Source: Octopus vulgaris (Eukaryota). From it: a stretch of DNA of 64,000 bases. The notes beneath the pieces are model-generated. The model was given only the letters and a program-made list of their open reading frames with translations. It did no database searches and was not told the DNA's origin. Made by a program: the position numbers and the translations under genes. Position 1 is the stretch's first letter, and each line of letters begins with the position of its first letter. The stretch spans positions 62,001 through 126,000 of the forward strand of contig CATOCA020000008.1 of NCBI GenBank assembly GCA_951406725.2. The letters run 5' to 3'. This document shows positions 1 to 64,000 of this stretch, piece by piece.

Positions 1-395
1 ATTATATCGACCCCAGTGCATAATTGGTACTTATTTAATCGACCCCGAAAGGATGAAAGGCAAAGTCGACCTCGGCGGAATTTGAACTCAGAACGTAGCG
101 GCATACGAAATACCTATTTCTATTTCTTTACTACCCACAAGGGGCTAAACACAGAGAGGACAAACAATGACAGACAAACGGATTAAGTCGATTACATCGA
201 CCCCAGTGTGTAACTGGTACTTAATTTATCGACCGCGAAAGGATGAAAGGCAAAGTCGATCTCGTCGGAATTTGAACTCAGAACGTAACGGCAGACGAAA
301 TACAGCTACGCATTTCGCCCGGTATGCTAACATTTCTGCCAGCTTGCCGCTAAGCATTTCACCCGGCGTGCTGACGTTTCTGCCAGCTCGCCGCC
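1..395 (-). mobile_element. tRNA-derived SINE, head-to-tail dimer (family 1), cut by window edge
   Basis: Minus strand reads GGCGGCGAGCTGGCAGAAACG..AGC (A-box-like), GAGTTCAAATTCC (B box), GCCTTTCATCCTTTCGGGGTCGAT..AAGTACCAG body and a GCCCCTTGTGGGTAGTAAAGAAATA tail; the head is locally duplicated at ~310-395. Confidence 0.8.
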
Positions 396-1678: not shown

Positions 1679-1717
<39 letters not shown>

Positions 1718-1721
<4 letters not shown>

Positions 1722-2162
1722 CTTTATAGCCCACAGGGGGCTAAACATAGAGCGGATAAACAAGGACAGAGAAAGGCAAAAGTCGATTACATCGACCCCA
1801 GTCCATAACTGGTACTTATTTAATCAACCCCGAAAAGATGAAAAGCAAATTCGACCTCGGTGGAATGTGAACTCAGAACGTAACGACAGACAAAATACCT
1901 ATTTCTTTATTACCCACAAGGGGCTAAACATAGAGGGGACAAACAAGGACAGACATAGGTATTAAGTCGATTACATCGACCCCAGTACGGAACTGGTAAT
2001 TAATTTATCGACTCCAGTGCGGAACTGGTACTTAATTTATCGACCCCGAAAGGATGAAAGGCAAAGTCAACCTCGGCGGAATTTGAATTCACAACGTAAC
2101 GCCAGACAAAATACCGCTAAGCATTTCGCCCGGCGTGCTCACGATTCTGCTAGCTCGCCGCC
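1718..2162 (-). mobile_element. tRNA-derived SINE dimer (family 1)
   Basis: Same head, body and tail as 1-395; two bodies and two tails; flanked by (AT)n on both sides. Confidence 0.8.
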
Positions 2163-2168
2163 TCATGC

Positions 2169-7184: not shown

Positions 7185-7199
7185 TTGTGTGTATGTTTC

Positions 7200-8115: not shown

Positions 8116-8465
8116 GAATTCATTCACTACTACCATCCACAACAAGTCACTTTCAGGGCACTTAACCATTTAACATCCTACTACTGTCATAGCACTCCCG
8201 CATTCTCCTCTTCCTCCTCCTCCTCCTCCTTCTTCTTCATCTTCTTCTTCTTCTTCTTCTTCTTCTTCTTCTTCTTCTTCTTCTTCTTCTTCTTCTTCTT
8301 CTTCTTCTTCTTCTTCTTCCTTTTCTTCCCTGCCAAGAATTCACAACCACCTCGAATCCATAAGAGTAAGCAAGAGAGACAGAGACAGACAAAAACAAGG
8401 AAAATGCCACTTGTATTTGACTACTATGCAAATATTCTTTAAAAAAAACTTTTCTTTTAATCCAC

Positions 8466-8541
<76 letters not shown>

Positions 8542-12390: not shown

Positions 12391-14090
<1,700 letters not shown>

Positions 14091-17306: not shown

Positions 17307-17329
17307 TTATCCATACAGACAGACATCCC

Positions 17330-17366
<37 letters not shown>

Positions 17367-17370
<4 letters not shown>

Positions 17371-26957: not shown

Positions 26958-28989
26958 CATACATGTACACATGCGCGCGCACACACACACAACTTATACA
27001 AGTTAGGTTTGGATCATCATGTAACCAAGACCATGCATAATTTTATGTTTGGCAGACTGTAGGCGGTCATGTCACTTGCTAGAAATAGACACGAAATTTG
27101 CTTGAATTCACACCACCACCACTACCACCACATACACTGTAATCATTATCATCATCATCAACTAGTGAGTTTTAGCCATTAATGGCAGTTGGAATCTTGC
27201 ATTTGAAAGATTTTGACAGACAGCAACATATGGAACCCCACTCCTTTTTATTTGAGGGGGACAGGAGCAAGTGAAGACTATAAACAGCTGAATCTCTTGC
27301 TGGCACCAAGGCTCGAAGCTAAATTCCTTGATTTCTGAATCAACAAATCACAAAAAGAAAGGACGATTATGACACAAGTCGATAGAAAACGATGTTATCA
27401 ATGATCCAAGAAGCTCCTAAACAGTACACCAAACCAATTGAAGCGCCTAGATTTTGGACATTGAATGACCATTTCTATTGGTCTGCAATGACCGCTTGCC
27501 AGCAGACAGAATTAACCGATTGATTAGTGTCACTGGAAGATAAATGCATTGGTGACTCACTGACTGCGTGTTCTTATAGGCTTTCTGAAATTTTTAAGGA
27601 CAACTAACCTGGGAAACTCACAGGAGAATTTATACAATGAAGCACAAATTTTAGGTAATAAAATATGTTGGAAGCAAGAATCCACAGGAATGCAGGCCTG
27701 TCCAGTTTGTATTAAACCTATAAACTGTATATCACAGTATGAGAATAAATTCTATCAAAGTTGTAAACATATTCTTCTTTGGCTGAACGGGAGTCATTCA
27801 AGGGAAATTATCTGGAGTGTAAATAAACATCACAAATGTGATGCAGAATGGTTAAATGAGGTACGGAGTGAATAAGGGGTAAACAACTTAAAATCTCGGA
27901 AGAGTACCTCTTGTAATAGTTGTCTTAAAACTATTGGATGTGAGTGATTTGATGATAATCAGGCACTGGAAGCTACTGTTTTGTGTATAAGAACTCACGA
28001 ACTTGTTGAAGAAATAAAGGAAATTGAGTTTATTGCGACAGACAGGTTGGTAGTTAACATCCACCTTTTCTGGCTTGGAACCAGAAGATTCATATGGAGA
28101 AAAACTAAAGATCATAGCGGAAATCAATGACCTATTGCTTAGCAAACCAGAATAAAGAAGGGCCTCTGCGACTTGCCGAACAACTTCTGATCAACAAAAG
28201 TATCGTTAAGACAGCAAAGTTGTATGGCCGATGAAAATATGATGAAACTATAAGAAAGCGTTTCATGGATGTCTGAGGTTTTGACTGCTTTAGTTGATGC
28301 CTTTAAAAGACTCGTCTAACCTACTGCCACTAAGACTGCAATTTTGACAAAGAGAATCAGGTTATTCGAGGGTAACAGCTTGCTTGTTCAACCGTCCGTC
28401 CTGGTAATGAATCCTCCTTGGTTAGCTCTGGTGATAACTTGGAGAGAGGAGAGAGGCAGTAATCATATAAGTAGAAAGTTATGCACCCAACCTGCAGGTG
28501 AGAGGATCCCATATTGCATGAAAGAGCAACTTACCCTGTAAAAGAACTCGGAAAATTTGGCCTCCAACCAGGCCTTTCGCGATCCCCCTTAAAGCCAGAA
28601 ACTTTTCAGCAACCCTTCGTATGTTTTCTGTATTTTTAAAATAAGGTCGGGTCCCTTGGTAGACACATGTTTAGTTCTCGTTTCATGTAGTGTTGCAAGT
28701 GAAAAGATCGAATATGTGCCGGCGTGGCTGAGTGGTCAAGTCGTTTGCTTCATAAACATGTAGTTTTTGGTTGAATACTACAAACCAGCAATTTGGGTAG
28801 GGGTTTCCTATTAAGGCCCCTGGTCGATGAATATTTTGAGAATGATGATGGTAAATGGAAATCTGTCACGTGTATGTGCATGCGTGTGAGTGTCTTTGTG
28901 TTTATCTTTCACCGTTTGACGACCGATGTTGGTTTGTTTACCTTTCGGGAACTTAGTGACGTAGCAAAAAGTGTCTGATAAATGCATAT

Positions 28990-29401
28990 TTCTTTATTGC
29001 CCACAGGGGTCTAAACATAGAGGGGACAAACAAGGACAGACAAACGGATTAAGTGGATTATATCGACTCCAGTGCGTAACTGGTACTTTTTTAATCGACC
29101 CCGAAAGGATGAAAGGCAAAGTCGACCTCGGCGGAATTTGAACCCAGAACGTAGCGGCATACGAAATACCTATTTCTTTACTACCCATAAAGGGCTAAAC
29201 ACAGAGAGGACGAACAAGGACAGACAGACGGATTAAGTCGATTATATCGACCCCAGTGCGTAACTGGTACTTATTTAATCGACCCCGAAAGGATGAAAGG
29301 CAAAGTCGATCTCGGCGGAATTTGAACTCAGAACGTAACGGTAGACGAAATACGGTTATGCATTTCGCCCGGCGTGCTAATGATTCTGCCAACTCGCCGC
29401 C
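28990..29401 (-). mobile_element. tRNA-derived SINE dimer (family 1), complete
   Basis: Head with A and B boxes, body, tail, then a headless second body and tail. Confidence 0.85.
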
Positions 29402-30354
29402 TTTCTCATAAATGTGACAGTCTCAAGAGAAGTATTTTGGTCGACTTGATTGTCTCAACCGGTCAAGGCTCAAGCATGACTTCAGTTCATTGAGTGAAAC
29501 AAGAATAACAGAATAAAGTTGCAATTTGGCGACCTTGTATGTCTGATATAAATATATATGCGGAGCCATGGCGAATGCATTCGGGAATTTCGTGAATGTG
29601 AGGATAAAATATCTTAACAATAAGGACAACAAGAGAATTGTTTATATGTGAAACGTAAACTAAACAGTGAACTTTGCATAGAAATTTTATTAATGCTGAG
29701 AGATTTGTAGCAAATTATTGTCTTCAATGAGATAATATCTTCACACAAAGAAATGCAAGGTAAAGAGAATATATATCAGAGAAATAACAAGCAAAACACC
29801 TTCTCTATGACAATACTTTAAGAAAACGCTTAAAAATATAGAAAGTAGCGGAAGAATAGCCCTGCGAAACAGGTGAGATACCACGATTGTTATTTGATAA
29901 AGAATCAAAGGCAAACGGTAAAACATAATGGATAAACGTTAAAAGTTAATAATGGTGGACGTGGGAAAGTCTTTGTTTAACAAATTTGAACGACGCCCAA
30001 GCGAAAAGAAACTGCAATAAGTTATTCTGGATTATATTATTTAGTGACAAATATGCATATACACATAGACATACACACAATCATATATAAATACTCGCAT
30101 ACATGCATACATACACACACAAACATATTTAACAAAGCAAAATGCTTGATCATTGAAAGACTCACACATAGATGCACATACGCATGCATGTTTGACCAAA
30201 CCAGAAGTATACGCATTGAAGCACACACGCGCAGGTACGCACACATAGGCACACATATGCACACCCATACATGCCTGTTATCTTTTACTTGTTTCAGTCG
30301 TTGGACTGAGGTCATGCTGGAGCATACATAGACACACACACACATACATACATA

Positions 30355-48496: not shown

Positions 48497-48732
48497 GAAG
48501 GGTTTTCCATTTTTAATCCCTCATCATATCTCTGGAAATTCATATGTGCACTATGGATTAGGTCACCTTCTCTGTGATGCTATTAAGACTTTTTTAAAAT
48601 TCTGTGATAAGACTGTACATCATCTTTAAAGAACTTTAATGAACTTTTGAAATCTGTTTATGTTACTTAATTATCTACATTACTTCATGAGTATAGCCTC
48701 AACCACTAGGATGTCTAGAGAACTCACATGTA

Positions 48733-48823
48733 TTTTAGCTGATGAGTACGGGACACGTTTATATGCTGTAATTTTTGCAACTTTTAATAAAACCTGTCCT
48801 TGTATGAAACGATTGTACTAAAA
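48733..48823 (+). ncRNA. Type I minimal hammerhead ribozyme (element-sense copy at 44676-44766, minus strand)
   Basis: TTTTAG-CTGATGA-GTACGGGACA...TGTCCTTGTAT-GAAAC-GATT-GTA-CTAAAA. Confidence 0.78.
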
Positions 48824-49421
48824 ACCTATCCATTCTTGTTGCTTCATTCTCGCGTATATATATATATATATATATGAAGATAAACTTATATATATATCTA
48901 TTCGCGCACGCACACACACACATATGGAGAAAAGAAGTGTATGAAGTGTATTCCCACGCAATAGTGAAAATAGAAGAATTTGTTTATGCAAGTTGAGAAT
49001 GTACTTGAGAAATACAATGCGTGGTATTTTTCAATTTTGTAACAGATTTACTAAAATAATAAAACAGCTTCGACAATTTTTCGTTTTTCAATTGTCAATA
49101 AAAAATGTTTAAGTACAAAGGGAATATGCGGAAAAAAGCACGCTTAAAACATCATGTGTTCGTACAACTTCCTATATTTTATAAGTTTCACAGAGATAGA
49201 CAGTAATACAAGTTCAAATGTTCGATGAATTTCATAACAGTCATACATGACCGATAATTCAGTAACACGCACACACACACACACACATATGGATCAAAAC
49301 AGAGCCATACATGTAACTCTTGATAAATGTGTTGAGCGCCCTACTTTCATTTGTCCACTCACTCGTGTGTGTATGTGTGTGTGTGTGTATACATACATAC
49401 TACATACATACATACATATAT

Positions 49422-50556
49422 ATCTATATATATAAAACTCAACTTGTGTGTCTGTGTGTGTATCTGTGTGTGTGTCTGTGTATTTAACTTCCCGGCACAT
49501 CTCCTCCTAGCCAACAAATCGTAGAACCACCAAAAATGGGTCACTTAAAGTTTAGGCGACTGAAAATTGAACTGCGCTATTTCTGTTCCGAAATTCACCT
49601 CGCAAGTGCAAAAATCGATAATGTTGGTTCACCACGCATGCAAGCATGCGTAAATTGCATGAAAAATAAAAAATCTCTCTCTATATAAACGGCAGTTTGT
49701 CTGTGCGTGTTTCTGTGTGTCTGTTTGCTTGTACCCTCACCCTGACCACGGCTTTCAACCGATTCTGATGAAACTTGACACACACGTAGCCCAATGTCAT
49801 AATTCAAAACTAACGCAGCGAAAATTTTGAAAAGTTCCTCCAGTTCTGAAAAAAATCGATAAATTCGACATGGGGTCGAGAATCAGGAACACAAACCACA
49901 AACTGTGTAGGGGACGCAACTCCACCTTTTTTAACTATCAAAAAAAATTTACCATCATATTTTTCCATTTTTTTGCTGTTTTTTGGCTATAACTCTCTAA
50001 AAATGCTTTATAGTTATTTCCCTTACAAACCTGAGCAACGCCGGGCGATACTGCTAGTCAAGATATAAAAACGAATTGCCGTAAACATTGTAGAAATTCG
50101 GCAAAGAAATGAATTTTCGGGATGTAGCCTGGAGGGCTTTTTCGTATTAATCGTTTGGACTTTGTGAACACATACCAATTGTTTTCATAACATTTTTAAC
50201 GCTTTAAATTAATTGCGTTGAGTCTGCAGTTTGAATCACTTTAACCAAATTTTAGCAGGCCGAATTTTTGATCATCACGATATATCGCCAGCGACTCCCT
50301 GAAACTCTCACCTGAAATCCCCGTTGAGAAATACTGATCTAAAAGAATAATTCAACAATGCAATTATTTGATCAACAAAAATTTATGAAACGCTTCTACG
50401 TACTTCCTATTGAGGAAATGGAACACATAAGCGCAAAACTAGAGGGCATTAAATGCTTGATTTTAAAACCAAATTAATTGAATTTTGATTGAACTTCATC
50501 CAAGTTTAGCTTAATTCGTGCGTGCATAGAACGCACGAGCCGGGCATTACTGCTAG
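49422..50556 (+). mobile_element. Nested non-autonomous Helitron-like elements (inner ~49676-50057)
   Basis: Two TC(TA)TATAAA..GTCTGTG starts and two GCCGGGC..TACTGCTAG|T ends. Confidence 0.6.
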
Positions 50557-50581
50557 TATATATATATATATATATATATAT

Positions 50582-50860
50582 AAACAATTGCTTCGTGGAA
50601 GGTGTTTATAAGCCATTTAAAACACACACAAAAAACCTTTAGATTCACTTCAACATTTAAGTTTAATTTGTCAAAGTATTTTCGTCACTTTGAGACCGCG
50701 ACCTGTTCACTGACAGCATGGAATTTTGTCAGTGAACAGGTCGCGGTCTCAAAGCGACGAAAATATTTTGACAAATTAAACTTAAATATTGAGGTGAAAC
50801 TAACGGTTTTTGTGTGTTTTTGAATGGCTTATAAACACCTTCCACGCTGCAATTGCTTTT
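50582..50860. repeat. ~280-bp fold-back element with hammerhead-like fold
   Basis: Arms of ~130 bp around a spacer at 50716-50726. Confidence 0.85.
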
Positions 50861-51028
50861 GTTTCAGCTCACGATCTCAGATCAAGTCTCTTGCGATGCA
50901 AGTACATCTCATGTATATATATATATATATGTTTATACAGTTTGCGTAAGGTATTGGAGGATATACTATTTTTGGGTCATTGCTGCATTTTTTGCTAACT
51001 CTGTATAATCTTTGTTTCAGAAAATAAT

Positions 51029-51800
51029 AATGGCAGACCCTCAGCTTACCCGAGAAATGAAGAGGCATGCTGTTATTGTGGTTATAAAGGCTGAACATGA
51101 CGATTTAGAAATATCTTTATTTTTAAAAGTTGTCGGATCTTTTTAAAAGTTGTCTACAAAGTTTGTAAGGAACTAGAGACTGAAGATGGAAGCATATCAC
51201 CAATATCAAAGCGTTTTAAATGCTCTGAAATCATCAGAGCACCCGAATTTATCCAGCAAGTTCAACAGACCATTTGTTACAATCCCAGAAAGTCCATGAG
51301 GTCAATTGCAAAAGATCTTCATGTGTCAGAAGGAACAGTTAGAAATGTTGTCCACGAAGACATCAGGAAAGATCAATTTGTCAGAAAAAGCAAACGAAAA
51401 TCACTCATCACATCTAAAAGGTTCTTAACAAATTGAAAAATCCAGCAGAAGATTTGATTTGGTTTTTCTCAAACGAGAAAAACTTCGACCTGATCAAAAA
51501 AGTTAACAAAAGAAATGACAGACTTTTATGTGCAGACCCTTCTGAAGTTCCATGTGTTATGCATACAAAATTTCCTGCAACTGTCATGGTTTTAGGGGTT
51601 GTCAGTAATGAAGGACATATGATGCCTCCTTTCCACAAGGCCTTAAAGTTAACTTTGCCGACTACATTGAGGCCCTGGAAATAATTGTTAAGTTCTGGAT
51701 AATATGCGATTTCGCGTTGCACTGGTTCTGCGAGTTGCACTGGATAGAAAGTGTATGCAATGGAAGGCCATATCTGTTTCAGTAAGACTCTGCACTATCA
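51029..51800 (+). mobile_element. Tc1/mariner-superfamily transposase relic (possibly DD37D/maT-like)
   Basis: NPRKSMRSIAKDLHVSEGTVRNVVHED HTH, FSNEKNF, TKFPATVMVLGVVSNEG; frameshifted. Confidence 0.7.
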
Positions 51801-52475
51801 CACTCAAGCTAAAACTTGAGAACTACACAAGCTAAAACTTGAGAACTACACAACCAATTCCATTCAAATTTTACACATGCCTTACTTAGGGTCCATGTAG
51901 TTTCATGTTCAACTTCTTGCCTAGAGCGAGCTCATAGCAATATCATATCTTCTCCACTATTTCAGTATTACGTGTTAAAAGTGAAACAAAAACGTTTCTC
52001 TATTTTATGTCAGATACTTTCACTTTAACAATAAAAAAATAATAACAATTGAATTATATGTAGTAAGTAATAATTAAAATCAAACTAAAGTAGAATATAA
52101 TCGTAACAACAAAAGTAAAAATAGCAATTGGTATAAAATTGCATCAATGACTTGAACTTGAATAAGTGGTTGTACATGAATGGGAATAAATTAAAAATAT
52201 AATTAGCGTGCAGAAATGGAATAGTCCAGATGGATAATAAAAAATTAAATTAAAGAAAAGACTATTGTCTATAAAGTATACAATGTAGAGAAAAAGAAGA
52301 TTGAACGGCGGTGTTTTTTGCGCTCTGTAAAATTCGGTTGAAAAGGAAAAAAGAACAAAAAGTGAATTGTGGTTGTTGCGGAATTGGAACGTCGGTTGGT
52401 GCGGTTTCGCGTCGCACTGGTTCTGTGCGTCGCACGTTTTCTGTTCGGGAGGCCGTTTTTCGGTCTGAGGCGACT

Positions 52476-53796
52476 ATGAGCCGCCTCTACCAAACGGATG
52501 AGATGGAAGGGAGAAATTTCTCTGAAAATTCGTCGACATCTGAGGAGGAAAGCACCTACGCAGGTATAACGAAGAAGTCAACAGAAAAAGAGATAGACCT
52601 GGCTAAGTTGACGGACTTCCAGGAGTTCATGAAGGAGGAGGAGAACGGAGAGGTTGAGCTGTTGCCTCTAGCAGGGCGCGGAGACTGGTTCCATCGTAGA
52701 ACCATTAAATATAAAGTATTTATGAATGGAGGTAGAAAAATGGAAGTGATTAACATGGAAGCAATTGAAGAGGCTCTCAAACAGACAGGAGAAGAAATTG
52801 TGTACATGACAAAAGGATTACAATGTGGAACCATAACGGTACAATTTAAAAGTGAGAAAGCAGCCAGGAATGTAGCAGCCAAGGTGGTGAGTACAGAAAA
52901 GATTTACTTGTTCCCCTCGTATTTGAATAGAAGGACCACCAGAATTAGGGTGGTGGGAATACCTCCACACCTAGAGGGCGAATTAATAACGGCTGCGGTT
53001 ATCAAAGGAAATGAAGATAAAGTGGACATCCTCCACGCCATTATGAAATATGAGGGCTGGAGAGGCGTAACAGTGGAGCTGAACGTACAGGCAGAGACCG
53101 AGGTACTGGTGGACCTGACGGAAAGCATCAGACTGGGAGAAGTGATCATGAGAGTGTGGGTGGAGGGCAGGGCTCCACGTTGTTACAAGTGTGGCCTGAG
53201 GGGTCACATAAGAGCCTTCTGCCCTCCCCCCAGGGAAAGAAACGGATTCCGAACCAGAGAGAGAGAAGCAGAAACCAGAAGAGAAGGAAACAGAGGAAGA
53301 GAATACACAGAAATGGAAGGGAGCTGGAAGTAAGAGGAAGAGAAGAATTCATGGAAAAGAAAATAATATGGAACTCCAATCTACCCCAAACCACCCACAC
53401 CCTCTGAGTCCCACCCTATCCATGCAGACATTGAACCCACCCGCTCCCCCCAACAAGAAAACAAAAGAAAAAAAATTAACACATACACAAGAGATTGAAA
53501 TCGAACCCAGGCCGTACATTTGTACTATGACTGAACAGAAAGAAGTTAAAAGTCTAATGGAAGAGTATAAATGGTATGATGTTGGAGAGACTAGGTATGC
53601 TGTGATTGAAAAGAAGAACATAGGTGAGTTTATGGGGAGGTGTGAAAGGGAGAATTGGGAGGTGAAAGATATAAGAATGAGCGATGAATTCGTGGAAGAT
53701 ATGGATGAGTATTTCGGAGTAAGAATGGATATGGAATTTATTCGTATTGACAAAGAACATTCAAGTGACTATGAAAAACAAAGGACAGGTAAGTGA
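52476..53796 (+). pseudogene. Unit 1: chimeric ORF1-like CCHC protein, frameshifted
   Basis: ATG at 52476 (MSRLYQ); type-A N-half and type-B C-half; frameshifts at the C-run near 53230 and near 53390. Confidence 0.8.
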
Positions 53797-54131
53797 TGCT
53801 GACGGACGGGGCCGTTGGTATCACTTTCATTTATCATTTTTCGTTTAACAATTCATGTTCATAAAGTTTAATTATAATGTTCTATGTCCCCATGTTTTGT
53901 AATGTCCCCCTCTTCGTTGGCCCCTTGTGGGTAATAAAAAAAAAAATTCGAACAAGTTTTTTCCGGTCGTTTTTTTTTCGGCTCCTGAAATTCGGCTGAA
54001 AAAAGAACAAAAAGCGTTGTTGTTGTTGTGGAAATTCTGAACGGCGTTGACGCGGTTTCGCGTTTCGCTCGTTCAGCGCGTTACACTTTTTCTGTTTTGG
54101 CGGCCGTTTTCGGTCTGTCAGACAGAAGGAA

Positions 54132-55550
54132 ATGGACTACGAGTCTCTAACAGACTTGTCCACGACGGATGAGGAACTGGAACAGGCAATTGCAGTGAAG
54201 CTGATGGAGGAAAAGGCTGGAGTTTTCGAGTCTTTATCAGACTTGTCTACATCTGAGGAGGAGCTAGAAATAGCAGTGAGGAAAATGGATCAGAAGCTGG
54301 GTTATACCTATGCCGGTGTAACCAAGAAGGCGGAAGAGAAAGGGGTCGACATGGCCAAGTTGCCAAGTTACCAGAAATACATGAAAAAGGAAAGCGGTGA
54401 GGTGGAACTATCACCGACACCCAGGAGAAAAGAATGGTATGATAAGAGGACCATTGTTTACAGGGTGTTCGCAAACGAAAGGAAGAGGGTAGAAGTTGTA
54501 ACCATGGGATGGATAGAGGAAGCCCTGCGAAGAACTGAGGAGGAAATAAATTTTCTGACTCGAGGATCCAAGTACGGGACCGTAGTTGTGCACTTTAAAA
54601 GTGAATCTGTAGCGAGGAAGATGGCAGCGAAGGCGGTGAAGTCGGAAAAGGTAACACTGTTACCTACGTATTTAAACAGGAGGATTACACGAATAAGGGT
54701 GGAGGGAGTGCCACCAAACGTGGAGGCAGAATGGATTGTGGCGGCTGTGATCAGCGGCCACGAGGACGAAGTGGATATTCTCCATGCCTCGGTTAAGTCC
54801 GAGGGCTGGAGAGGCGTAACAGTGGAGCTGAACGTACAGGCAGAGACCGAGGTACTGGTGGACCTGACGGAAAGCATCAGACTGGGAGAAGTGATCATGA
54901 GAGTGTGGGTGGAGGGCAGGGCTCCACGTTGTTACAAGTGTGGCCTGAGGGGTCACATAAGAGCCTTCTGCCCTCCCCCAGGGAAAGAAATGGATCCCGA
55001 ACCAGAGAGAGAGAAGCAGAAACCAGAGGAGAAGGAAACAGAGGAAGAGAATACACAGAAATGGAAGGAAGCTGGAAGTAAGAGGAAGAGAAGAATATGT
55101 GGAAAAAAAGAAAATAATATGGAACTCCAATCTACCCCAAAACCTCCCACACCCTCTGAGTCCCACCCTATCCATGCAGACATTGAACCCACCCGCTCCC
55201 CCCAACAAGAAAACAAAAGAAAAAAAAAGAATACACACACACAAGAGATTGAAATCGAACCCAGGCCGTACATTTGTACTATGACTGAACAGAGGGAAGT
55301 TAAAAGTCTAATGGAAGAGTATAAATGGTATGATGTTGGAGAGACTAGGTATGCTGTGATTGAAAAGAAGAACATAGGTGAGTTTATGGGGAGGTGTGAA
55401 AGGGAGAATTGGGAGGTGAAAGATATAAGAATGAGCGATGAATTCGTGGAAAATATGAATGAGTATTTCGGAGTAAGAATGGATATGGAATTTATTCGTA
55501 TTGGCAAAGAACATTCAAGTGACTATGAAAAACAAAGGACAGGTAAGTGA
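54132..55550 (+). CDS. Unit 2: intact L1/Tx1 ORF1-like zinc-knuckle protein (type B), 472 aa
   Basis: TYAGVTKK, RRM-like region, RIRVEGVPP, VWVEGRAPRCYKCGLRGHIRAFC (CX2CX4HX4C), KRKRR. Confidence 0.85.
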   Translation: MDYESLTDLSTTDEELEQAIAVKLMEEKAGVFESLSDLSTSEEELEIAVRKMDQKLGYTYAGVTKKAEEKGVDMAKLPSYQKYMKKESGEVELSPTPRRKEWYDKRTIVYRVFANERKRVEVVTMGWIEEALRRTEEEINFLTRGSKYGTVVVHFKSESVARKMAAKAVKSEKVTLLPTYLNRRITRIRVEGVPPNVEAEWIVAAVISGHEDEVDILHASVKSEGWRGVTVELNVQAETEVLVDLTESIRLGEVIMRVWVEGRAPRCYKCGLRGHIRAFCPPPGKEMDPEPEREKQKPEEKETEEENTQKWKEAGSKRKRRICGKKENNMELQSTPKPPTPSESHPIHADIEPTRSPQQENKRKKKNTHTQEIEIEPRPYICTMTEQREVKSLMEEYKWYDVGETRYAVIEKKNIGEFMGRCERENWEVKDIRMSDEFVENMNEYFGVRMDMEFIRIGKEHSSDYEKQRTGK

Positions 55551-55766
55551 TGCTGACGGACGGGGCCGTTGGTATCGCTTTCATTTTATCATTTTTTTCG
55601 TTTAACAATACATGTTCATAAAGTTTAATTATAATGTTCTATGTCCCCATGTCTTTTGTTGTCCCCCTCTGTGTCGCCCCTTAGTGGGTAATAAAAAATC
55701 AGCTCGTTCAGCGCGTTACACTTTTTCTGTTTTGGCGGCCGTTTTCGGTCTGTCAGACAGAAGGAA

Positions 55767-57127
55767 ATGGACAACCCCTACCTGATGGGAGATACGGCTG
55801 CAGTTTTTGAGTCTTTAACAGACTTGTCTACGTCTGAGGAGGAGCTAGAAATAGCAGTGAGGAAAATGGATCAGAAGCTGGGTTATACCTATGCCGGTGT
55901 AACCAAGAAGGCGGAAGAGAAAGGGGTCGACATGGCCAAGTTGCCAAGTTACCAGAAATACATGAAAAAGGAAAGCGGTGAGGTGGAACTATCACCGACA
56001 CCCAGGAGAAAAGAATGGTATGATAAGAGGACCATTGTTTACAGGGTGTGCGCAAACGAAAGGAAGAGGGTAGAAGTTGTATCCATGGAATGGATAGAGG
56101 AAGCCCTGCGAAGAACTGAGGAGGAAATAAATTTTCTGACTCGAGGATCCAAGTACGGGACCGTAGTTGTGCACTTTAAAAGTGAATCTGCAGCGAGGAA
56201 GATGGCAGCGAAGGCGGTGAAGTCGGAAAAGGTAACACTGTTACCTACGTATTTAAACAGGAGGATTACACGAATAAGGGTGGAGGGAGTGCCACCAAAC
56301 GTGGAGGCAGAATGGATTGTGGCGGCTGTGATCAGCGGCCACGAGGACGAAGTGGATATTCTCCATGCCTCGGTTAAGTCCGAGGGCTGGAGAGGCGTAA
56401 CAGTGGAGCTGAACGTACAGGCAGAGACCGAGGTACTGGTGGACCTGACGGAAAGCATCAGACTGGGAGAAGTGATCATGAGAGTGTGGGTGGAGGGCAG
56501 GGCTCCACGTTGTTACAAGTGTGGCCTGAGGGGTCACATAAGAGCCTTCTGCCCTCCCCCAGGGAAAGAAATGGATACCGAACCAGAGAGAGAGAAGCAG
56601 AAACCAGAGGAGAAGGAAACAGAGGAAGAGAATACACAGAAATGGAAGGAAGCTGGAAGTAAGAGGAAGAGAAGAATACGTGGAAAAGAAAATAATATGG
56701 AACTCCAATCCACCCCAAAACCACCCACGCCCTCTGAGTCCCACCCTATCCATGCAGACATTGAACCCACCCGCTCCCCCCAACAAGAAAACAAAAGAAA
56801 AAAAAGAATACATACACACAAGAGATTGAAATCGAACCCAGGCCGTACATTTGTACTATGACTGAACAGAAAGAAGTTAAAAGTCTAATGGAAGAGTATA
56901 AATGGTATGATGTTGGAGAGACTAGGTATGCTGTGATTGAAAAGAAGAACATAGGTGAGTTTATGGGGAGGTGTGAAAGGGAGAATTGGGAGGTGAAAGA
57001 TATAAGAATGAGCGATGAATTCGTGGAAAATATGGATGAGTATTTCGGAGTAAGAATGGATATGGAATTTATTCGTATTGGCAAAGAACATTCAAGTGAC
57101 TATGAAAAACAAAGGACAAGTAAGTGA
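55767..57127 (+). pseudogene. Unit 3: type B with alternative N-terminus; frameshift in A-run near 56800
   Basis: ORFs 55767-56861 and 56858-57127 together match unit 2. Confidence 0.8.
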
Positions 57128-57443
57128 TGCTGACGGACGGGGCCGTTGGTATCGCTTTCATTTTATCATTTTTTTCGTTTAACAATTCATGTTCATAAAG
57201 TTTAATTATAATGTTCTATGTCCCCATGTTTTGTTATGTCCGCCATTCTTCGTAGCCCCTTAGTGGGTAATAAAGAAATACGCGGTTTTTTCGGCTCCTG
57301 AAAATTCGGTAAAAAAGAACAAAAAGCGTTGTTGTTGTTGTGGAAATTCTGAACGGCGTTGACGCGGTTTCGCGTTTCGCTCGTTCAGCGCGTTACACTT
57401 TTTCTGTTTTGGCGGCCGTTTTCGGTCTGTCAGACAGAAGGAG

Positions 57444-58859
57444 ATGGACTATGAGTCTCTAACAGACTTGTCCACGACAGATGAGGAACTGGAACAGGCA
57501 ATTGCAGTGAAGCTGATGGAGGAAAAGGCTGGAGTTTTTGAGTCTTTATCAGACTTGCCTATGTCTGAGAAGGAGCTAGAAATGGCAGCAAGGAAATTGG
57601 AAGACAAGCTGAGTTATACCTATGCCGGTGTAACCAAGAAGGCGGAAGAGAAAGGGGTCGACATGGCCAAGTTGCCAAGTTACCAGAAATACATGAAAAA
57701 GGAAAGCGGTGAGGTGGAACTATCACCGACACCCAGGAGAAAAGAATGGTATGATAAGAGGACCATTGTTTACAGGGTGTGCGCAAACGAAAGGAAGAGG
57801 GTAGAAGTTGTATCCATGGAATGGATAGAGGAAGCCCTGCGAAGAACTGAGGAGGAAATAAATTTTCTGACTCGAGGATCCAAGTACGGGACCGTAGTTG
57901 TGCACTTTAAAAGTGAATCTGCAGCGAGGAAGATGGCAGCGAAGGCGGTGAAGTCGGAAAAGGTAACACTGTTACCTACGTATTTAAACAGGAGGATTAC
58001 ACGAATAAGGGTGGAGGGAGTGCCACCAAACGTGGAGGCAGAATGGATTGTGGCGGCTGTGATCAGCGGCCACGAGGACGAAGTGGATATTCTCCATGCC
58101 TCGGTTAAGTCCGAGGGCTGGAGAGGCGTAACAGTGGAGCTGAACGTACAGGCAGAGACCGAGGTACTGGTGGACCTGACGGAAAGCATCAGACTGGGAG
58201 AAGTGATCATGAGAGTGTGGGTGGAGGGCAGGGCTCCACGTTGTTACAAGTGTGGCCTGAGGGGTCACATAAGAGCCTTCTGCCCTCCCCCAGGGAAAGA
58301 AACGGATTCCGAACCAGAGAGAGAGAAGCAGAAACCAGAGGAGAAGGAAACAGAGGAAGAGAATACACAGAAATGGAAGGAAGCTGGAAGTAAGAGGAAG
58401 AGAAGAATTCATGGAAAAGAAAATAATATGGAACTCCAATCTACCCCAAAACCACCCACACCCTCTGAGTCCCACCCTATCCATGCAGACATTGAACCCA
58501 CCCGCTCCCCCCCAACAAGAAAACAAAAGAAAAAAAAGAATACACATACACAAGAGATTGAAATCGAACCCAGGCCGTACATTTGTACTATGACTGAACA
58601 GAAAGAAGTTAAAAGTCTAATGGAAGAGTATAAATGGTATGATGTTGGAGAGACTAGGTATGCTGTGATTGAAAAGAAGAACATAGGTGAGTTTATGGGG
58701 AGGTGTGAAAGGGAGAATTGGGAGGTGAAAGATATAAGAATGAGCGATGAATTCGTGGAAAATATGGATGAGTATTTCGGAGTAAGAATGGATATGGAAT
58801 TTATTCGTATTGACAAAGAACATTCAAGTGACTATGAAAAACAAAGGACAGGTAAGTGA
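57444..58859 (+). CDS. Unit 4: intact ORF1-like zinc-knuckle protein (type B), 471 aa
   Basis: Colinear with unit 2, with no internal stop. Confidence 0.85.
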   Translation: MDYESLTDLSTTDEELEQAIAVKLMEEKAGVFESLSDLPMSEKELEMAARKLEDKLSYTYAGVTKKAEEKGVDMAKLPSYQKYMKKESGEVELSPTPRRKEWYDKRTIVYRVCANERKRVEVVSMEWIEEALRRTEEEINFLTRGSKYGTVVVHFKSESAARKMAAKAVKSEKVTLLPTYLNRRITRIRVEGVPPNVEAEWIVAAVISGHEDEVDILHASVKSEGWRGVTVELNVQAETEVLVDLTESIRLGEVIMRVWVEGRAPRCYKCGLRGHIRAFCPPPGKETDSEPEREKQKPEEKETEEENTQKWKEAGSKRKRRIHGKENNMELQSTPKPPTPSESHPIHADIEPTRSPPTRKQKKKKNTHTQEIEIEPRPYICTMTEQKEVKSLMEEYKWYDVGETRYAVIEKKNIGEFMGRCERENWEVKDIRMSDEFVENMDEYFGVRMDMEFIRIDKEHSSDYEKQRTGK

Positions 58860-59189
58860 TGCTGACGGACGGGGCCGTTGGTATCACTTTCATTTTATCA
58901 TTTTTCGTTTAACAATTCATGTTCATAAAGTTTAATTATAATGTTCTATGTCCCCATGTTTTGTAATGTCCCCCTCTTCGTTGGCCCCTTGTGGGTAATA
59001 AAAAATCACGTGTTTTTTTCGGCTCTGTGTTTTTTGCTCTCTGTGAAATTCGGTAAAAAGAAAAAAGAACAAAAAGTGAATGGTTGTTGGTGTAAAATTT
59101 TGAACATAGTTGATGAGGTTTCGCGTCTCACTGGTTCTGCGCGTTACACTTTTTCGGTTCGGGAGGCCGTTTCTCGGCCGGAGGCGACT

Positions 59190-60517
59190 ATGAGCCGCCT
59201 CCATCAAGCGGAGGAGATGGAAGGGAGAATTTACTCTGAAATTTCGACGGAAGTATCGACATCTGAGGAGGAGTTGGCGGTGAAAAAGATGGAAGGCACC
59301 TACGCAGGTGTAACGAAGAAGTCAACGGAAAAGAGATAGACTTGGCTAAGTTGGCGGGCCTCCAGGAATTTGTGAAGGAGGACGAGAACGGTGAAGTTGA
59401 GCTGCTGCATCCAGTAGGGTGCGGAGACTGGTTCCATCGTAGAACCATTAAATATAAAGTATTTATGAATGGAGGTAGAAAGATGGAAGTAATTAACATG
59501 GAAGCAATTGAAGAGGCTCTTAAGCAGACGGGAGAGGAAATTGTGTACATGACGAAAGGATTACAATACGGAACCATAACGGTGCAATTTAAAAGTGAAA
59601 AAGCAGCCAGGAATGTAGCAGCCAAGGTGGTGAGTACAGAAAAGATTTACTTGTTACCCTCGTATCTGAATAGGCGGACAACTAGAATTAGGTGGAGGGA
59701 ATACCTCCACACCTAGAGGGCGAATTAATAACGGCTGCGGTTATAAAAGGAAATGAAGATAAAGTGGACATCCTCCACGCCATTATGAAGTATGAAGGCG
59801 TGAGAGGTGCCACACTAGTTATGAACGTTCAAACGGAGGCGGATGTTATAGAGAAGATTACGGACAGCATAAAGACTGGAAATATTATTATGAGAGTGTG
59901 GGTGGAGGGTAGGGCGCCCAGGTGCTACAAGTGTGGCCAAAGGGGTCACATAAGAGCCTACTGCCCTCCCCCACCAAAGGAAAAAGAAAAGGAAAGCGTT
60001 GAGGAAGCCTCAGGAGAGGAAGAAAATAAACAGAAACAAACAGAGAAGAAAACGACAGAAGAAGAGGAGATGCAACAAGAGTGGAAAGAAGCGGGAACAA
60101 AGAGAAAAAGAAGGAAAAAGAAAAAACTGTGCGAAGCCCCAACCCACCCCGACACCACCCATACCCTTGGAGTCCCATCCTTCCCCTGCAAACAGTAATT
60201 CCACCCACTCCCCGCCTACAAGAAGAATAAAAACAGACACACAGAGCAAAGAAAGTCCCAAGACCCATTTTTTATTTGTTATACATGGGAGAGACGTACA
60301 AAACGTTAAAAAACTGGTGTTAACCAAGTGGTACGAACACGAAGATTGGAGCTACACGGCTGTGGATGGTGATGATACGGGTATATTGGCGACAAGGTTA
60401 GAGGAAGAGGGTGTGTGTTGGAAGTCAGTGGAAATGAAAGATGAATGGATAGAGAGGGCTAAAAGAAAAACGAATGTTGTGATGGTTAAAACAGGAATAC
60501 TAATTGAAAATGGGTGA
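59190..60517 (+). pseudogene. Unit 5: type A, frameshifted
   Basis: Nearly identical to unit 6 but split over four ORF calls by small indels in homopolymer-like tracts. Confidence 0.8.
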
Positions 60518-60846
60518 AGAAGGACAGATAAGTGATGCTGGCGGATGGGGCCGTCGGTATCGCTCTCATATATCATTTTCATATTCCATTTTGCTCATAT
60601 ATATGTAATTGTGATGTTCCATGTCCCCATGTCTTGTAATGTCCCCCTCTTCGTTGGCCCCTTGTGGGTAATAAAAAATCACGTGTTTTTTTGCTCTCTG
60701 TGAAATTCGGTAAAAAGAAAAAAGAACAAAAAGTGAATGGTTGTTGTTGTAAAATTTTGAACATAGTTGATGCGGTTTCGCGTCTCACTGGTTCTGCGCG
60801 TTACACTTTTTCGGTTCGGGAGGCCGTTTCTCGGCCGGAGGCGACT

Positions 60847-62175
60847 ATGAGCCGCCTCCATCAAGCGGAGGAGATGGAAGGGAGAATTTACTCTGAAATT
60901 TCGACGGAAGTATCGACATCTGAGGAGGAGTTGGCGGTGAAAAAGATGGAAGGCACCTACGCAGGTGTAACGAAGAAGTCAACGGAAAGAGAGATAGACT
61001 TGGCTAAGTTGGCGGGCCTCCAGGAGTTTGTGAAGGAGGACGAGAACGGTGAAGTCGAGCTGCTGCATCCAGTAGGGCGCGGAGACTGGTTCCATCGTAG
61101 AACCATTAAATATAAAGTATTTATGAATGGAGGTAGAAAGATGGAAGTAATCAACATGGAAGCAATTGAAGAGGCTCTCAAGCAGACAGGAGAGGAAATT
61201 GTGTACATGACAAAAGGATTACAATACGGAACGATAACGGTGCAATTTAAAAGCGAAAAAGCAGCCAGGAATGTAGCAGCCAAGGTGGTGAGTACAGAAA
61301 AGATTTACTTGTTACCCTCGTATCTGAATAGGCGGACAACTAGAATTAGGGTGGAGGGAATACCTCCACACCTAGAGGGCGAATTAATAACGGCTGCGGT
61401 TATAAAAGGAAATGAAGATAAAGTGGACATCCTCCACGCCATTATGAAGTATGAAGGCGTGAGAGGTGCCACACTAGTTATGAACGTTCAAGCGGAGGCG
61501 GATGTTATAGAGAGGATTACGGACAGCATAAAAACTGGAAATATTATTATGAGAGTGTGGGTGGAGGGTAGGGCGCCCAGGTGCTACAAGTGTGGCCAAA
61601 GGGGTCACATAAGAGCCTACTGCCCTCCCCCACCAAAGGAAAAAGAAAAGGAAAGCGTTGAGGAAGCCTCGGGAGAGGAAGAAAATAAACAGAAACAAAC
61701 AGAGAAGGAAACGACAGAAGAAGAGGAGATGCAACAAGAGTGGAAAGAAGCGGGAACAAAGAGAAAAAGAAGGAAAAAGAAAAACTGTGCGAAGCCCCAA
61801 CCCACCCCGACACCACCCATACCCTTGGAGTCCCATCCTTCCCCTGCAAACAGTAATTCCACCCACTCCCCGCCTACAAGAAGAATAAAAACAGACACAC
61901 AGAGCAAAGAAAGTCCCAAGACCCATTTTTTATTTGTTATACATAGGAAAGACATACAAAACGTTAAAAAACTGGTGTTAACCAAGTGGTACGAACACGA
62001 AGATTGGAGCTACACGGTTGTGGACAGTGATGATACGGGTATATTGGCGACAAGGTTAGAGGAAGAGGGTGTGTGTTGGAAGTCAGTGAAAATGAAAGAT
62101 GAATGGATAGAGAGGGCTAAAAGAAAAACGAATGTTGTGATAGGTGAAACAGGAATACAAATTGGAAATGGGTGA
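60847..62175 (+). CDS. Unit 6: intact ORF1-like zinc-knuckle protein (type A), 442 aa from ATG
   Basis: MSRLHQ start; TYAGVTKK; RIRVEGIPP; RCYKCGQRGHIRAYC; distinct C-terminal module (KWYEHEDWSY). Confidence 0.85.
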   Translation: MSRLHQAEEMEGRIYSEISTEVSTSEEELAVKKMEGTYAGVTKKSTEREIDLAKLAGLQEFVKEDENGEVELLHPVGRGDWFHRRTIKYKVFMNGGRKMEVINMEAIEEALKQTGEEIVYMTKGLQYGTITVQFKSEKAARNVAAKVVSTEKIYLLPSYLNRRTTRIRVEGIPPHLEGELITAAVIKGNEDKVDILHAIMKYEGVRGATLVMNVQAEADVIERITDSIKTGNIIMRVWVEGRAPRCYKCGQRGHIRAYCPPPPKEKEKESVEEASGEEENKQKQTEKETTEEEEMQQEWKEAGTKRKRRKKKNCAKPQPTPTPPIPLESHPSPANSNSTHSPPTRRIKTDTQSKESPKTHFLFVIHRKDIQNVKKLVLTKWYEHEDWSYTVVDSDDTGILATRLEEEGVCWKSVKMKDEWIERAKRKTNVVIGETGIQIGNG

Positions 62176-62502
62176 AGAAGGACAGACAAGTGATGCTGGC
62201 GGATGGGGCCGTCGGTATCACTCTCATATATCATTTTTCATATTCCATTTTGCTCATATATATGTAATTGTGATGTTCCATGTCCCCATGTCTTGTAATG
62301 TCCCCCTCTTCGTTGGCCCCTTGTGGGTAATAAAAAATCACGTGTTTTTTTCGGCTCCTGAAATTCGGTAAAAAAGAACAAAAAGCGTTGTTGTTGTTGT
62401 GGAAATTCTGAACGGCGTTGACGCGGTTTCGCGTTTCGCTCGTTCAGCGCGTTACACTTTTTCTGTTTTGGCGGCCGTTCTCGGTCTGTCGGACGGAAGG
62501 AG

Positions 62503-63296
62503 GTGGACTATGAGTCTCTGACAGACTTGTCCACGACAGATGAGGAGCTGGAACGGGCAATTGCAGTGAGGCTGATGGAAGAAAGGGCTGGAATTTTCGA
62601 GTCTTTATCAGACCTGCCTGCGTCTGAGAAGGAGCTAGAAATGGCAGCAAGGAATTTGGAGGGCCGGGCTCCACGTTGTTACAAGTGTGGCCTGAGGGGT
62701 CACATAAGAGCCTTCTGCCCTCCCCCAGGGAAAGAAATGGATTCCGAACCAGAGAGAGAGAAGCAGAAACCAGAGGAGAAGGAAACAGAGGAAGAGAATA
62801 CACAGAAATGGAAGGAAGCTGGAAGTAAGAGGAAGAGAAGAATGCGTGGAAAAGAAAATAATATGGAACACCAATCTACCCCAAAACCACCCACACCCTC
62901 TGAGTCCCACCCTATCCATGCAGACATTGAACCCACCCGCTCCCCCCAACAAGAAAACAAAAGAAAAAAAAAGAATACACACACAGACAAGAGATTGAAG
63001 TCGATATCAGGCCGTACATTTGTACTATGACTGAACAGAAAGAAGTTAAATGTCTAATGGAAGAGTATAAATGGTATGAAGTCGGTGAGACTAGGTATGC
63101 TGTGATTGAAAAGAAGAACATAGGTGAGTTTATGGTGAGGTGTGAAAGGGAGAATTGGGAGGTGAAAGATATAAGAATGAGCGATGAATTCGTGGAAAAT
63201 ATGGATGAGTATTTCGGAGTAAGAATGGATATGGAATTTATTCGTATTGGCAAAGAACATTCAAGGGACGATGAAAAACAAAGGACAGGTAAGTGA
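62503..63296 (+). pseudogene. Unit 7: type B with in-frame loss of the RRM-like region
   Basis: Start codon reads GTG; MAARNL is joined to EGRAPRC; later frameshift near 62980. Confidence 0.8.
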
Positions 63297-63642
63297 TGCT
63301 GACGGATGGGGCCGTTGGTATCACTTTCATTTTCTCATTTTTTCGTTTAACAATTCATTTTCCATAAAGTTTAATTATAAATGTTTTATGTCCCCATGTC
63401 TTTTGGTGTCCACTTCTGTGTCGCCCCTAGTGGGTAATAAAGAAATACAATGTAGAGAAAAAGAAGATTGAACGGCGGTGTTTTTTGCGCTCTGTAAAAT
63501 TCGGTTGAAAAGGAAAAAAGAACAAAAAGTGAATTGTGGTTGTTGCGGAATTGGAACGTCGGTTGGTGCGGTTTCGCGTCGCACTGGTTCTGTGCGTCGC
63601 ACGTTTTCTGTTCGGGAGGCCGTTTTTCGGTCTGAGGCGACT

Positions 63643-64000
63643 ATGAGCCGCCTCTACCAAACGGATGAGATGGAAGGAGAAATTTCTCTGAAAATTCGTC
63701 GACATCTGAGGAGGAGTTGGCGGTGAAAAAAATGGAAAGCACCTACGCAGGTATAACGAAGAAGTCAACAGAAAAAGAGATAGACCTGGCTAAGTTGACG
63801 GACTTCCAGGAGTTCATGAAGGAGGAGGAGAACGGAGAGGTTGAGCTGTTGCCTCTAGCAGGGCGCGGAGACTGGTTCCATCGTAGAACCATTAAATATA
63901 AAGTATTTATGAATGGAGGTAGAAAAATGGAAGTGATTAACATGGAAGCAATTGAAGAGGCTCTCAAACAGACAGGAGAAGAAATTGTGTACATGACAAA
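63643..64000 (+). pseudogene. Unit 8: type A 5' part, same leader as unit 1
   Basis: MSRLYQTDEMEG then a 1-bp deletion; truncated by the window end. Confidence 0.75.

What the first reader, a model, noticed from the sequence alone, without database searches (positions are those of the whole stretch)
53885..53946. Array units and SINE family 1 share the same 3' tail
Seen: the reverse complement of 1900-1955 is TGTCTGTCCTTGTTTGTCCCCTCTATGTTTAGCCCCTTGTGGGTAATAAAGAAATA. Units 1, 4, 5 and 6 contain an identical 19-nt GCCCCTTGTGGGTAATAAA preceded by TGTCCCCCTCT, and units 3 and 7 end in the identical GTGGGTAATAAAGAAATA. Related SINE tails occur near 120-165, 1718-1770, 28990-29040 and 29170-29225. 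Known: SINEs borrow the 3' end recognised by the RT of a partner LINE, which is typical of stringent-type LINEs and not of mammalian L1. Inference: a three-part system of an unseen autonomous L1/Tx1-like RT donor, ORF1-only elements and a SINE, all using one RNA recognition tail. This argues that the units are, or were, retrotransposed in trans.
Basis: partly seen in the sequence, partly recalled or inferred. Interest (0 to 1): 0.8.

Follow-up and report, generated by a model that had tools for sequence, protein, structure and literature searches.

The report
Octopus ORF1-only retroelements share SINE tail
A row of jumping-gene copies that make only an RNA-binding protein ends in the same short tail as a common short repeat of the octopus genome, which suggests that both borrow the copying enzyme of a third element not yet found, and the row sits inside the same gene of a relative.

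Summary
Seven of seven complete array units and five of five complete SINE ends in the window share a 40-60 nt 3' tail, far above shuffled controls, and no SINE body lies upstream of the unit tails. The units (two subfamilies, A and B) encode a type I LINE ORF1 (two RRMs, one CCHC knuckle) of an octopod family, under purifying selection, with no endonuclease or RT. Varied junctions, one 5'-truncated unit and two apparent target duplications point to target-primed retrotransposition. New here: the array is inserted into the ORF1 coding sequence of another member of the same family. A 29-nt piece of that target recurs after unit 7, and public contigs show both the uninterrupted target and a B-type head joined at the same site. 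The RT donor was not found: no genome was held, and no RT in the window ends in this tail. L1/Tx1 is the likeliest donor by elimination, not by test. The proposed GCCC/GGGT hairpin is only 4 bp and shows no covariation. Verdict: real, a new variant of HAL1/HeT-A-like elements, three-part model unproven.

The parts
52237..52306 (+). Target: interrupted ORF1 coding sequence (start of RRM1, KEKTIVYKVYNVEKKKIE) of another member of the same family; part of a repeat that extends at least to 52100
   Evidence: HMM i-E 0.0013 and 60-67% identity over 15-20 aa to octopus homologs; best of 127,900 six-frame 17-mers on a homolog-only PSSM, 37.7 bits; high summed contig depth and loose ends
52278..52306 (+). 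Target piece T, left copy of apparent target-site duplication (22-29 nt)
   Evidence: exact repeat starting at 63445; loose ends match the window to 52306 and then continue as target
52307..53948 (+). Unit U1: chimera, subfamily A' 5' half and subfamily B 3' half, switch at 53051-53054; ORF frameshifted in this assembly
53791..53826 (+). 15-bp 3' UTR hairpin right after the ORF1 stop, in all 7 units, absent from the SINE
   Evidence: z -4.95, -3.75, -3.86 in U1, U5, U6; 98.1% of cells paired, 3 of 15 pairs vary on one side, none on both
53877..53948 (+). Shared 3' tail of U1 (the finding), with AATAAA and an A-run
53949..55701 (+). Unit U2, subfamily B, intact 472-aa ORF (54132-55550); tail 55634-55701
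55702..57280 (+). Unit U3, subfamily B, lacks about 100 nt of the 5' end; tail 57211-57280 ends AAAGAAATA like the SINE
57281..59008 (+). Unit U4, subfamily B, intact 471-aa ORF (57444-58859); tail 58941-59008
59009..60681 (+). Unit U5, subfamily A, frameshifted; begins with 17 nt of a B-type head (59009-59025) that recur at 62341-62357, an apparent target duplication around U5-U6; tail 60613-60681
60682..62340 (+). Unit U6, subfamily A, intact 442-aa ORF (60847-62175): RRM-RRM-CCHC, low-complexity linker, small C-terminal domain; tail 62272-62340
62341..63447 (+). Unit U7, subfamily B with internal deletion of both RRMs; tail 63381-63447 ends AAAGAAATA
63445..63473 (+). Target piece T, second copy, sandwiched between U7 and U8
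63474..64000 (+). Unit U8, subfamily A', cut by the window end; against U1's 5' region 1 mismatch (in the flank) in 542 aligned letters, a 1-nt and a 21-nt indel
1900..2165 (-). SINE, full length, tail ends at 1900
1717..1899 (-). SINE from position 51 to tail, directly after the previous copy
121..350 (-). SINE, near full length, followed by a position-51 copy (114-5, cut by the window start)
29171..29402 (-). SINE, full length
28987..29170 (-). SINE from position 51 to tail, directly after the previous copy

Best explanation
[quoted passage not shown] They and the tRNA-type SINE are copied in trans by the EN-RT of an unseen autonomous LINE, most likely of the L1/Tx1 group, which recognises the common 3' tail. 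Shown: shared tail, ORF1-only content, selection on ORF1, varied junctions, duplicated target pieces, insertion inside a relative's ORF1. Inferred: target-primed reverse transcription, with priming favoured where the DNA resembles the RNA end (target ATAAAGTATA against tail ATAAAGAAATA). That would make the end of an earlier copy the best next target, so that head-to-tail arrays grow by repeated insertion and are then reshuffled by template switching or recombination. Also inferred: identity and clade of the RT donor, and that the unit's ORF1p helps its own RNA compete for the donor's ORF2p.
For: Tail homology is limited to the last 40-60 nt and ends at the SINE's own end in U3 and U7. ORF1 model at pLDDT 94 matches tandem-RRM proteins (Foldseek E 1.3e-5; VIA Z 9.5, rmsd 2.3 over 79 residues for RRM1) and has one CCHC knuckle; RRM before CCHC defines type I ORF1 (PMC4120745, passages), and such variants in non-mammalian animals go with the Tx1 clade (PMC5203782, passages). 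416 relatives at E<=1e-3; 14 of 20 looked up carry a name, all octopods; no RT or EN family in 21 of 21 longer hits. A versus B: dN 0.29, dS 2.6. Piece T recurs after U7 and 17 nt recur around U5-U6; U3 is 5'-truncated. Public contigs add three other tail-to-head linkers and a T-to-B-head joint. Tandem copies sandwiching a TSD are described for Tx1-mobilised SINEU-3 (PMC4494074, passages). O. vulgaris has 56 Mb of L1-Tx1, 13 recently active families, and only 0.5 Mb of I-clade LINE (PMC13282606).
Against: No RT-encoding sequence ending in the tail was found: the tail profile hits only the 12 known ends in the window, and none of the 24 loose ends shown (576 hidden) could be read as ORF2. The terminal hairpin is in the minimum-energy fold of 4 of 5 SINE tails but 0 of 4 unit tails, without covariation. 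The last 45 nt are identical between B-type U4 and A-type U5/U6 although dS is saturated, so tails move between families and their sharing does not date or root them. U1 and U8 are nearly identical over 540 nt, so DNA-level duplication also shaped the array. No dispersed single copy with both flanks was seen.
Confidence: 0.6

Rival explanations
1. Tail piracy: an L1/Tx1-derived ORF1 transcript took the SINE's tail (or the tail of the SINE's partner) by RT template switching. Units and SINE share an RT donor, but the donor is of another clade (RTE, CR1, Dong-R4) and unrelated to this ORF1.
For: Tails are exchanged between unit subfamilies, and U1 has a sharp A'/B switch within 3 nt. The SINE lacks the units' 15-bp hairpin. 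None of the animal pairs in the 58-pair SINE/LINE table is L1 or Tx1 (PMC3747384, Table 1 read). Tail swapping is common in mollusc SINEs (PMC4824008, PMC11481361, passages).
Against: No SINE body remnant in any unit. The CR1-like elements of the window end in a different sequence. Purifying selection on ORF1 is easiest to explain if ORF1p works with a cognate ORF2p.
Confidence: 0.2
2. The units are a domesticated or satellite-like gene array amplified only by unequal crossing over; a SINE end was captured once as polyadenylation signal.
For: Head-to-tail layout, 96-98% identity among B copies and between U5 and U6, near identity of U1 and U8, AATAAA in the tail, selection on ORF1.
Against: A and B units are interspersed with different junctions; apparent target duplications; 5' truncation; insertion into another ORF1; 4 of 7 complete units broken in this assembly (some breaks lie in homopolymers and may be sequencing errors); B copies differ by 4 non-synonymous and 0 synonymous changes; no SINE body.
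Confidence: 0.1
3. The flank is not an insertion target but a deleted earlier unit, and T travels as a 5' leader of master copies; there is no site preference.
For: U1 and U8 share the same T-to-head junction. The T-to-B joint rests on one contig with 24 letters on its shorter side and could be a deletion allele of this locus. Target-derived 5' extensions are known for SINEU-2B (PMC4494074, passage).
Against: T is in frame with the upstream ORF1-like flank, and contigs continue past T in register with the family profile. A' and B heads join T at different points (52306 and 52295).
Confidence: 0.1

Closest known systems
HAL1 (half-L1) of mammals; Ag-Sponge (CR1-derived) of mosquito
   Same: Non-autonomous LINE derivative that encodes ORF1p only (PMC5786205 and PMC5753468, passages).
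   Different: Type I ORF1 (RRM-RRM-CCHC) instead of the L1 type II ORF1; a sequence tail shared with a SINE instead of poly(A) alone; tandem array nested in a relative's ORF1.
HeT-A of Drosophila
   Same: ORF1-only element that depends on an RT donor; head-to-tail arrays (recalled).
   Different: One knuckle, not the three of Jockey ORF1. The 5' ends face 52 kb of ordinary DNA, whereas HeT-A 5' ends face the chromosome tip (recalled).
Tx1-Mar with SINEU-3 of crocodilians; Xenopus Tx1 in Tx1D
   Same: Preference for another transposon as target; tandem copies sandwiching a TSD (PMC4494074, passages and section 15).
   Different: The passenger here codes for a protein and the target is an ORF1 of its own family; for SINEU-1 no LINE sharing the 3' end was found, while here a tail is shared with a coding element; no RT is in hand to place it in Tx1.
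Stringent SINE/LINE pairs (UnaSINE/UnaL2; maize ZmSINE2/LINE1-1_ZM; Chlamydomonas SINEX-3/L1-1_CR)
   Same: Homology limited to the last tens of bases; 35-61 bp at 72-95% in bivalves (PMC11481361, passage), as here.
   Different: The L1-clade pairs listed are from plants and algae, none from animals (PMC3747384 Table 1); here the autonomous member is missing and the stem-loop is unproven.

Membership tests
ORF1-only non-autonomous LINE (HAL1/HeT-A/Ag-Sponge kind) | Single ORF of ORF1 type, no endonuclease or RT | tested here: met
   units of 1.1-1.75 kb
ORF1-only non-autonomous LINE (HAL1/HeT-A/Ag-Sponge kind) | Marks of target-primed insertion (TSD, 5' truncation, A-rich end) | tested here: met
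   22-29 nt repeat at 52278 and 63445; 17 nt at 59009 and 62341; U3 truncated. The right end of the array lies outside the window.
ORF1-only non-autonomous LINE (HAL1/HeT-A/Ag-Sponge kind) | 3' end shared with an autonomous LINE | not testable with these tools
   no genome held; window holds no such LINE
HAL1 proper | L1 type II ORF1 (coiled coil, RRM, CTD; Transposase_22) | tested here: not met
   no Transposase_22 hit in 142 of 142 members; fold is two RRMs plus knuckle
Tx1 clade / L1 group | RT phylogeny | not testable with these tools
   no RT linked to the units was found
Tx1 clade / L1 group | Type I ORF1 (RRM upstream of CCHC) | tested here: met
   not diagnostic, also in I, Jockey, R1, L2
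Tx1 clade / L1 group | Target-sequence preference | tested here: inconclusive
   A' and B heads both follow T, but only this locus and one contig joint
HeT-A-like telomeric element | Array at the chromosome end with 5' ends pointing outward (recalled) | tested here: not met
   5' side is followed by 52 kb of interstitial DNA
tRNA-derived SINE | tRNA-like head with A and B boxes | tested here: inconclusive
   GTTCAAATTC (B-box-like, consensus recalled) and TGGCAGAA seen directly; ARAGORN 0 genes; Rfam no match at gathering score
DeuSINE / Nin-DC SINE | Deu/Nin central domain | not tested
   resemblance recalled only; SINEBase supplements could not be read
Stringent SINE/LINE pair | Conserved 3' stem-loop with compensatory changes | tested here: inconclusive
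   4 pairs, 93.8% of cells paired, 0 two-sided changes in 12 rows; consensus -4.45 kcal/mol

The most novel reading that the evidence does not exclude
The interrupted, more abundant ORF1 relative is the autonomous L1/Tx1 helper itself. The ORF1-only units are hyperparasites that take the helper's RT through the shared tail and insert at a fixed site in the helper's ORF1, so that they disable helper copies while supplying ORF1p in trans, and so limit the enzyme that also drives a main octopus SINE.
Probability: 0.12. Interest if true: 0.8.

Novelty: new variant of a known kind. Interest (0 to 1): 0.5.

Why it matters
SINEs make up about 12% of the Octopus vulgaris genome (PMC13282606), and I found no paper that names the LINE partner of this one. 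The tail gives a direct handle: one search of an assembly names the RT donor. If it is L1/Tx1, it would be an animal case of stringent 3'-tail recognition in a group where the 58-pair table of PMC3747384 lists only plant and algal pairs, with two passengers, one coding and one not, competing for one RT. Insertion of ORF1-only elements into a relative's ORF1 would add a new target class to the Tx1 repertoire. The family also contaminates octopus gene sets: relatives are annotated as uncharacterised genes or fused into host gene models.

Tried and rejected
No own genome was available. Word-index protein searches found nothing at near length, at 1508-4305 aa or at 827-2360 aa; they also missed relatives that one search found, so they are weak evidence against a fused ORF1-ORF2. 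Related-locus search with the broad alignment could not be seeded; with the narrow one, 0 of 538 metagenome candidates were confirmed. Tail patterns had 0 matches in viral contigs, metagenomes (this pattern fits only the longer unit variant, not the SINE tail) and prokaryote genomes. Four look-ups of earlier findings returned nothing. Rfam: 0 matches at gathering score; E-value mode on 50400-54300 gave only sub-threshold hairpin hits. Expression: no RNA holder listed; RNA labels there are guesses, so nothing is claimed. A resemblance between the SINE's inner palindrome and the units' hairpin in the forced alignment was rejected: it does not beat shuffles. The second helix was misregistered and was redone. 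The second peptide score (13.5 bits) is for a composite of two loose-end consensuses and is not used. ZCCHC3 as Tx1-derived relative: Atlas rows scored 0.89-0.90 with 159-160 shared features, a lead only, and PMC10351740 (passages) does not mention Tx1. A loose end before 53908 in run X2 (2 contigs, median 132 nt, agreement 0.63) shows another sequence upstream of the tail but could not be identified. A covariance model was not built: 4 pairs without covariation add nothing to the profile HMM. SINEBase supplements were not readable, and the O. vulgaris consensus library of PMC13282606 is deposited outside the library; both may already name these families.

Full report
Observation. Every sequence statement of the finding checks out. 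The SINE tail used as a single query finds the five SINE tails and all seven complete unit ends, and nothing else at E up to 10. Against the S1900 copy, BLAST identity of the unit ends is 86-96% over 28-42 nt, or 79% over 61 nt for U2. In 21 SINE-unit comparisons the tail score beat all 500 dinucleotide shuffles 19 times, and all but 1 or 2 in the other two. The SINE body scored within the null against the 335 nt upstream of the unit tails in 21 of 21 comparisons. A profile of the 12 tails finds no 13th copy: next best E 0.35, reversed-window control best E 2.4. So the homology is real, confined to the last 40-60 nt, and not a leftover of a longer SINE insertion.

The units. Eight units run head to tail from about 52307 to the window end. 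Subfamily B (U2, U3, U4, U7) and subfamily A (U5, U6; variant A' in U8 and the 5' half of U1) are about 65% identical in DNA. U2, U4 and U6 have intact ORFs of 472, 471 and 442 aa. U1, U3, U5 and U7 are broken in this assembly; some breaks are in homopolymers where public contigs differ from U1 (table 4), so some may be sequencing errors. Pfam sees only a weak zinc knuckle. A profile search found 416 relatives at E up to 1e-3. Of 20 looked up, 14 carry names, all from Octopus vulgaris, O. bimaculoides, O. sinensis or Argonauta, which places the window in an octopod. The AlphaFold model of the N-terminal 227 residues (142 sequences, pLDDT 94) matches tandem-RRM proteins. RRM followed by CCHC is the type I ORF1 of non-LTR retrotransposons (PMC4120745, passages). 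None of 21 longer relatives has an RT or endonuclease family; three are fused to LDL-receptor, C2H2 or WD40 host domains, probably by gene prediction. Between A and B dN is 0.29 and dS 2.6 (saturated), while B copies differ by 4 non-synonymous and 0 synonymous changes: selection on masters, drift in copies, as expected for a retrotransposon.

3' end. After the stop codon all seven units have a 15-bp hairpin (53791-53826 in U1; z -3.75 to -4.95 in the three folded; 98% paired, three one-sided changes, none two-sided) that the SINE lacks. The GCCC/GGGT stem in the shared tail is the consensus fold and 93.8% of cells pair, but no pair covaries. It is in the best fold of 4 of 5 SINE tails and 0 of 4 unit tails. 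It may be the recognition element, but this is not shown. The last 45 nt of B-type U4 equal those of A-type U5 and U6, while B-type U2, U3 and U7 differ: tails have moved between subfamilies.

Junctions. The letters between tail and head differ from junction to junction, U3 lacks about 100 nt of 5' end, and U1 switches from A' to B between 53051 and 53054. U5 starts with 17 nt of a B head that recur at the start of U7, as if U5-U6 had been inserted at the U4/U7 junction with a target duplication. The letters before U1 (from 52278) recur right after the tail of U7 (from 63445). Logan contigs of four runs from four studies (X1, X6, X2, X7, chosen from 24 listed, of which 20 rows from 8 studies hold half or more of U2's words) add two other linkers between tail and A' head in X1, a third in X2, and in X6 one contig that joins the flank at 52295 straight to a B head. 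Tandem copies that sandwich a TSD are what sequential insertion at one site gives for SINEU-3 (PMC4494074, passages).

The target. The flank is itself repeated: summed contig depth over 52100-52279 is about 250,000 in X6 against 7,000-31,000 over B parts and 1,300-5,400 over the A' part; in X1 it is only about 1.5 times the B level (the tool warns that this is no copy number). It reads KEKTIVYKVYNVEKKKIE, the first strand of RRM1 of the same ORF1 family: HMM i-E 0.0013, and rank 1 of 127,900 six-frame 17-mers on a matrix built from the 140 homologs alone, ahead of the units' own motifs (37.7 against 33.9 bits; best outside the array and its flank 10.1). Loose ends at this point give the uninterrupted target (30 contigs in X1, agreement 0.57; 5 in X6, agreement 0.99). 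The X6 consensus repeats window letters 52302-52306 and continues in frame with residues that fit profile columns 61-69 (10.9 bits, reached by 3 in 10,000 non-array 9-mers; the last residue is inferred from two bases), whereas the window continues into the unit head (-19.5 bits). The array therefore interrupts the ORF1 of a third, degenerate family member. The site resembles the tail end (ATAAAGTATA against ATAAAGAAATA, seen directly).

Mechanism. Most likely (0.6): ORF1-only elements and the SINE are both copied by one LINE's EN-RT through the common tail. Priming at sites that resemble the RNA end makes earlier tails and T preferred targets, arrays grow by repeated insertion, and template switches or recombination make chimeras. 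The donor's clade is inferred. In O. vulgaris the abundant LINEs are RTE, Dong-R4, CR1 and L1-Tx1, with I at 0.5 Mb (PMC13282606, main text parts 1-2 of 3 and supplement read). RTE and R4 lack an ORF1 (recalled), an ORF in the window with CCCH-type finger hits is unrelated to this family, and RRM/CCHC ORF1 variants in non-mammalian animals go with Tx1 (PMC5203782, passages). The rivals are tail piracy from a SINE served by another clade (0.2), a DNA-level gene array (0.1), and T as a travelling leader with no site preference (0.1). The donor itself was not found: no genome was held, the CR1-like elements of the window end differently, and only 24 of 600 loose ends were shown.

Known and new. 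ORF1-only LINE derivatives are known (HeT-A, HAL1, Ag-Sponge; PMC5786205, passages), as are shared SINE/LINE tails and Tx1 targeting of other transposons. The element is not HAL1 proper and not telomeric HeT-A. I found no description of octopus ORF1-only elements, of this SINE's partner, or of insertion into a relative's ORF1 in ten full-text searches; the library lacks most subscription papers and Repbase or Dfam entries, which may hold these families. Of the other papers I saw passages only: PMC4824008, PMC4758252, PMC3531059, PMC11481361, PMC5753468, PMC3899998, PMC10351740, PMC8967140; of PMC3747384 passages and the tables section, part 1 of 2; of PMC4494074 passages and section 15.

Verdict. 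A real feature and a new variant of a known kind. Interest 0.5: the parts have precedents, but the combination gives a direct test for the partner of an octopus SINE and points to an unusual target.

Noticed in passing
window 5-400, 1717-2165, 28987-29402 (minus strand): All three SINE loci are dimers with the same junction: a tail followed directly by SINE position 51. At 351-400 an extra SINE head (positions 1-52) lies upstream, as if one SINE had inserted at position 51 of another. This suggests a dimeric subfamily or a preferred site in the head.
   Followed up: partly
window 51702-51739: A 38-nt piece resembling the units' 5' UTR (84-87% over 36-38 nt to A-type heads) sits between CTGGATA direct repeats inside a mariner-like transposase remnant (label recalled), 570 nt before the array; perhaps a templated insertion.
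   Followed up: partly
window 50582-50858: A 279-nt palindromic element (89% self-complementary), MITE-like.
   Followed up: no
window 32282-34055, 12737-13803, 44641-48858: Long near-perfect inverted repeats: 884 nt at 99% with a 6-nt spacer, 369 nt at 100%, 345 nt at 100%; fold-back elements or assembly artefacts.
   Followed up: no
window 3475-5330, 10286-12110, 16493-17310, 17300-19387, 30312-30686: Several CR1-like LINE copies (label recalled), one with a 584-aa RT ORF (RVT_1 E 4e-31); they share their own 3' motif GGTGGTGCCCCAGCATGGCC, unrelated to the finding's tail. An ORF with CCCH-finger hits lies at 18653-19387 (minus strand).
   Followed up: partly
window 7171-9536, 26190-26579, 46242-48241: Penelope-like RT and GIY-YIG fragments (labels recalled from the translations).
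   Followed up: no
window 55254-55547, 61915-62172: The unit ORFs end in a small C-terminal domain of about 90 aa, 23% identical between A and B, with no Pfam hit above cut-off; not folded.
   Followed up: no
proteins P0064, P0093, P0128 (and P0100): Pieces of this ORF1 family are joined to LDL-receptor, C2H2 and WD40 domains in predicted proteins (P0064, P0128 and P0100 are named octopus records): probably mis-prediction, possibly exonisation.
   Followed up: no
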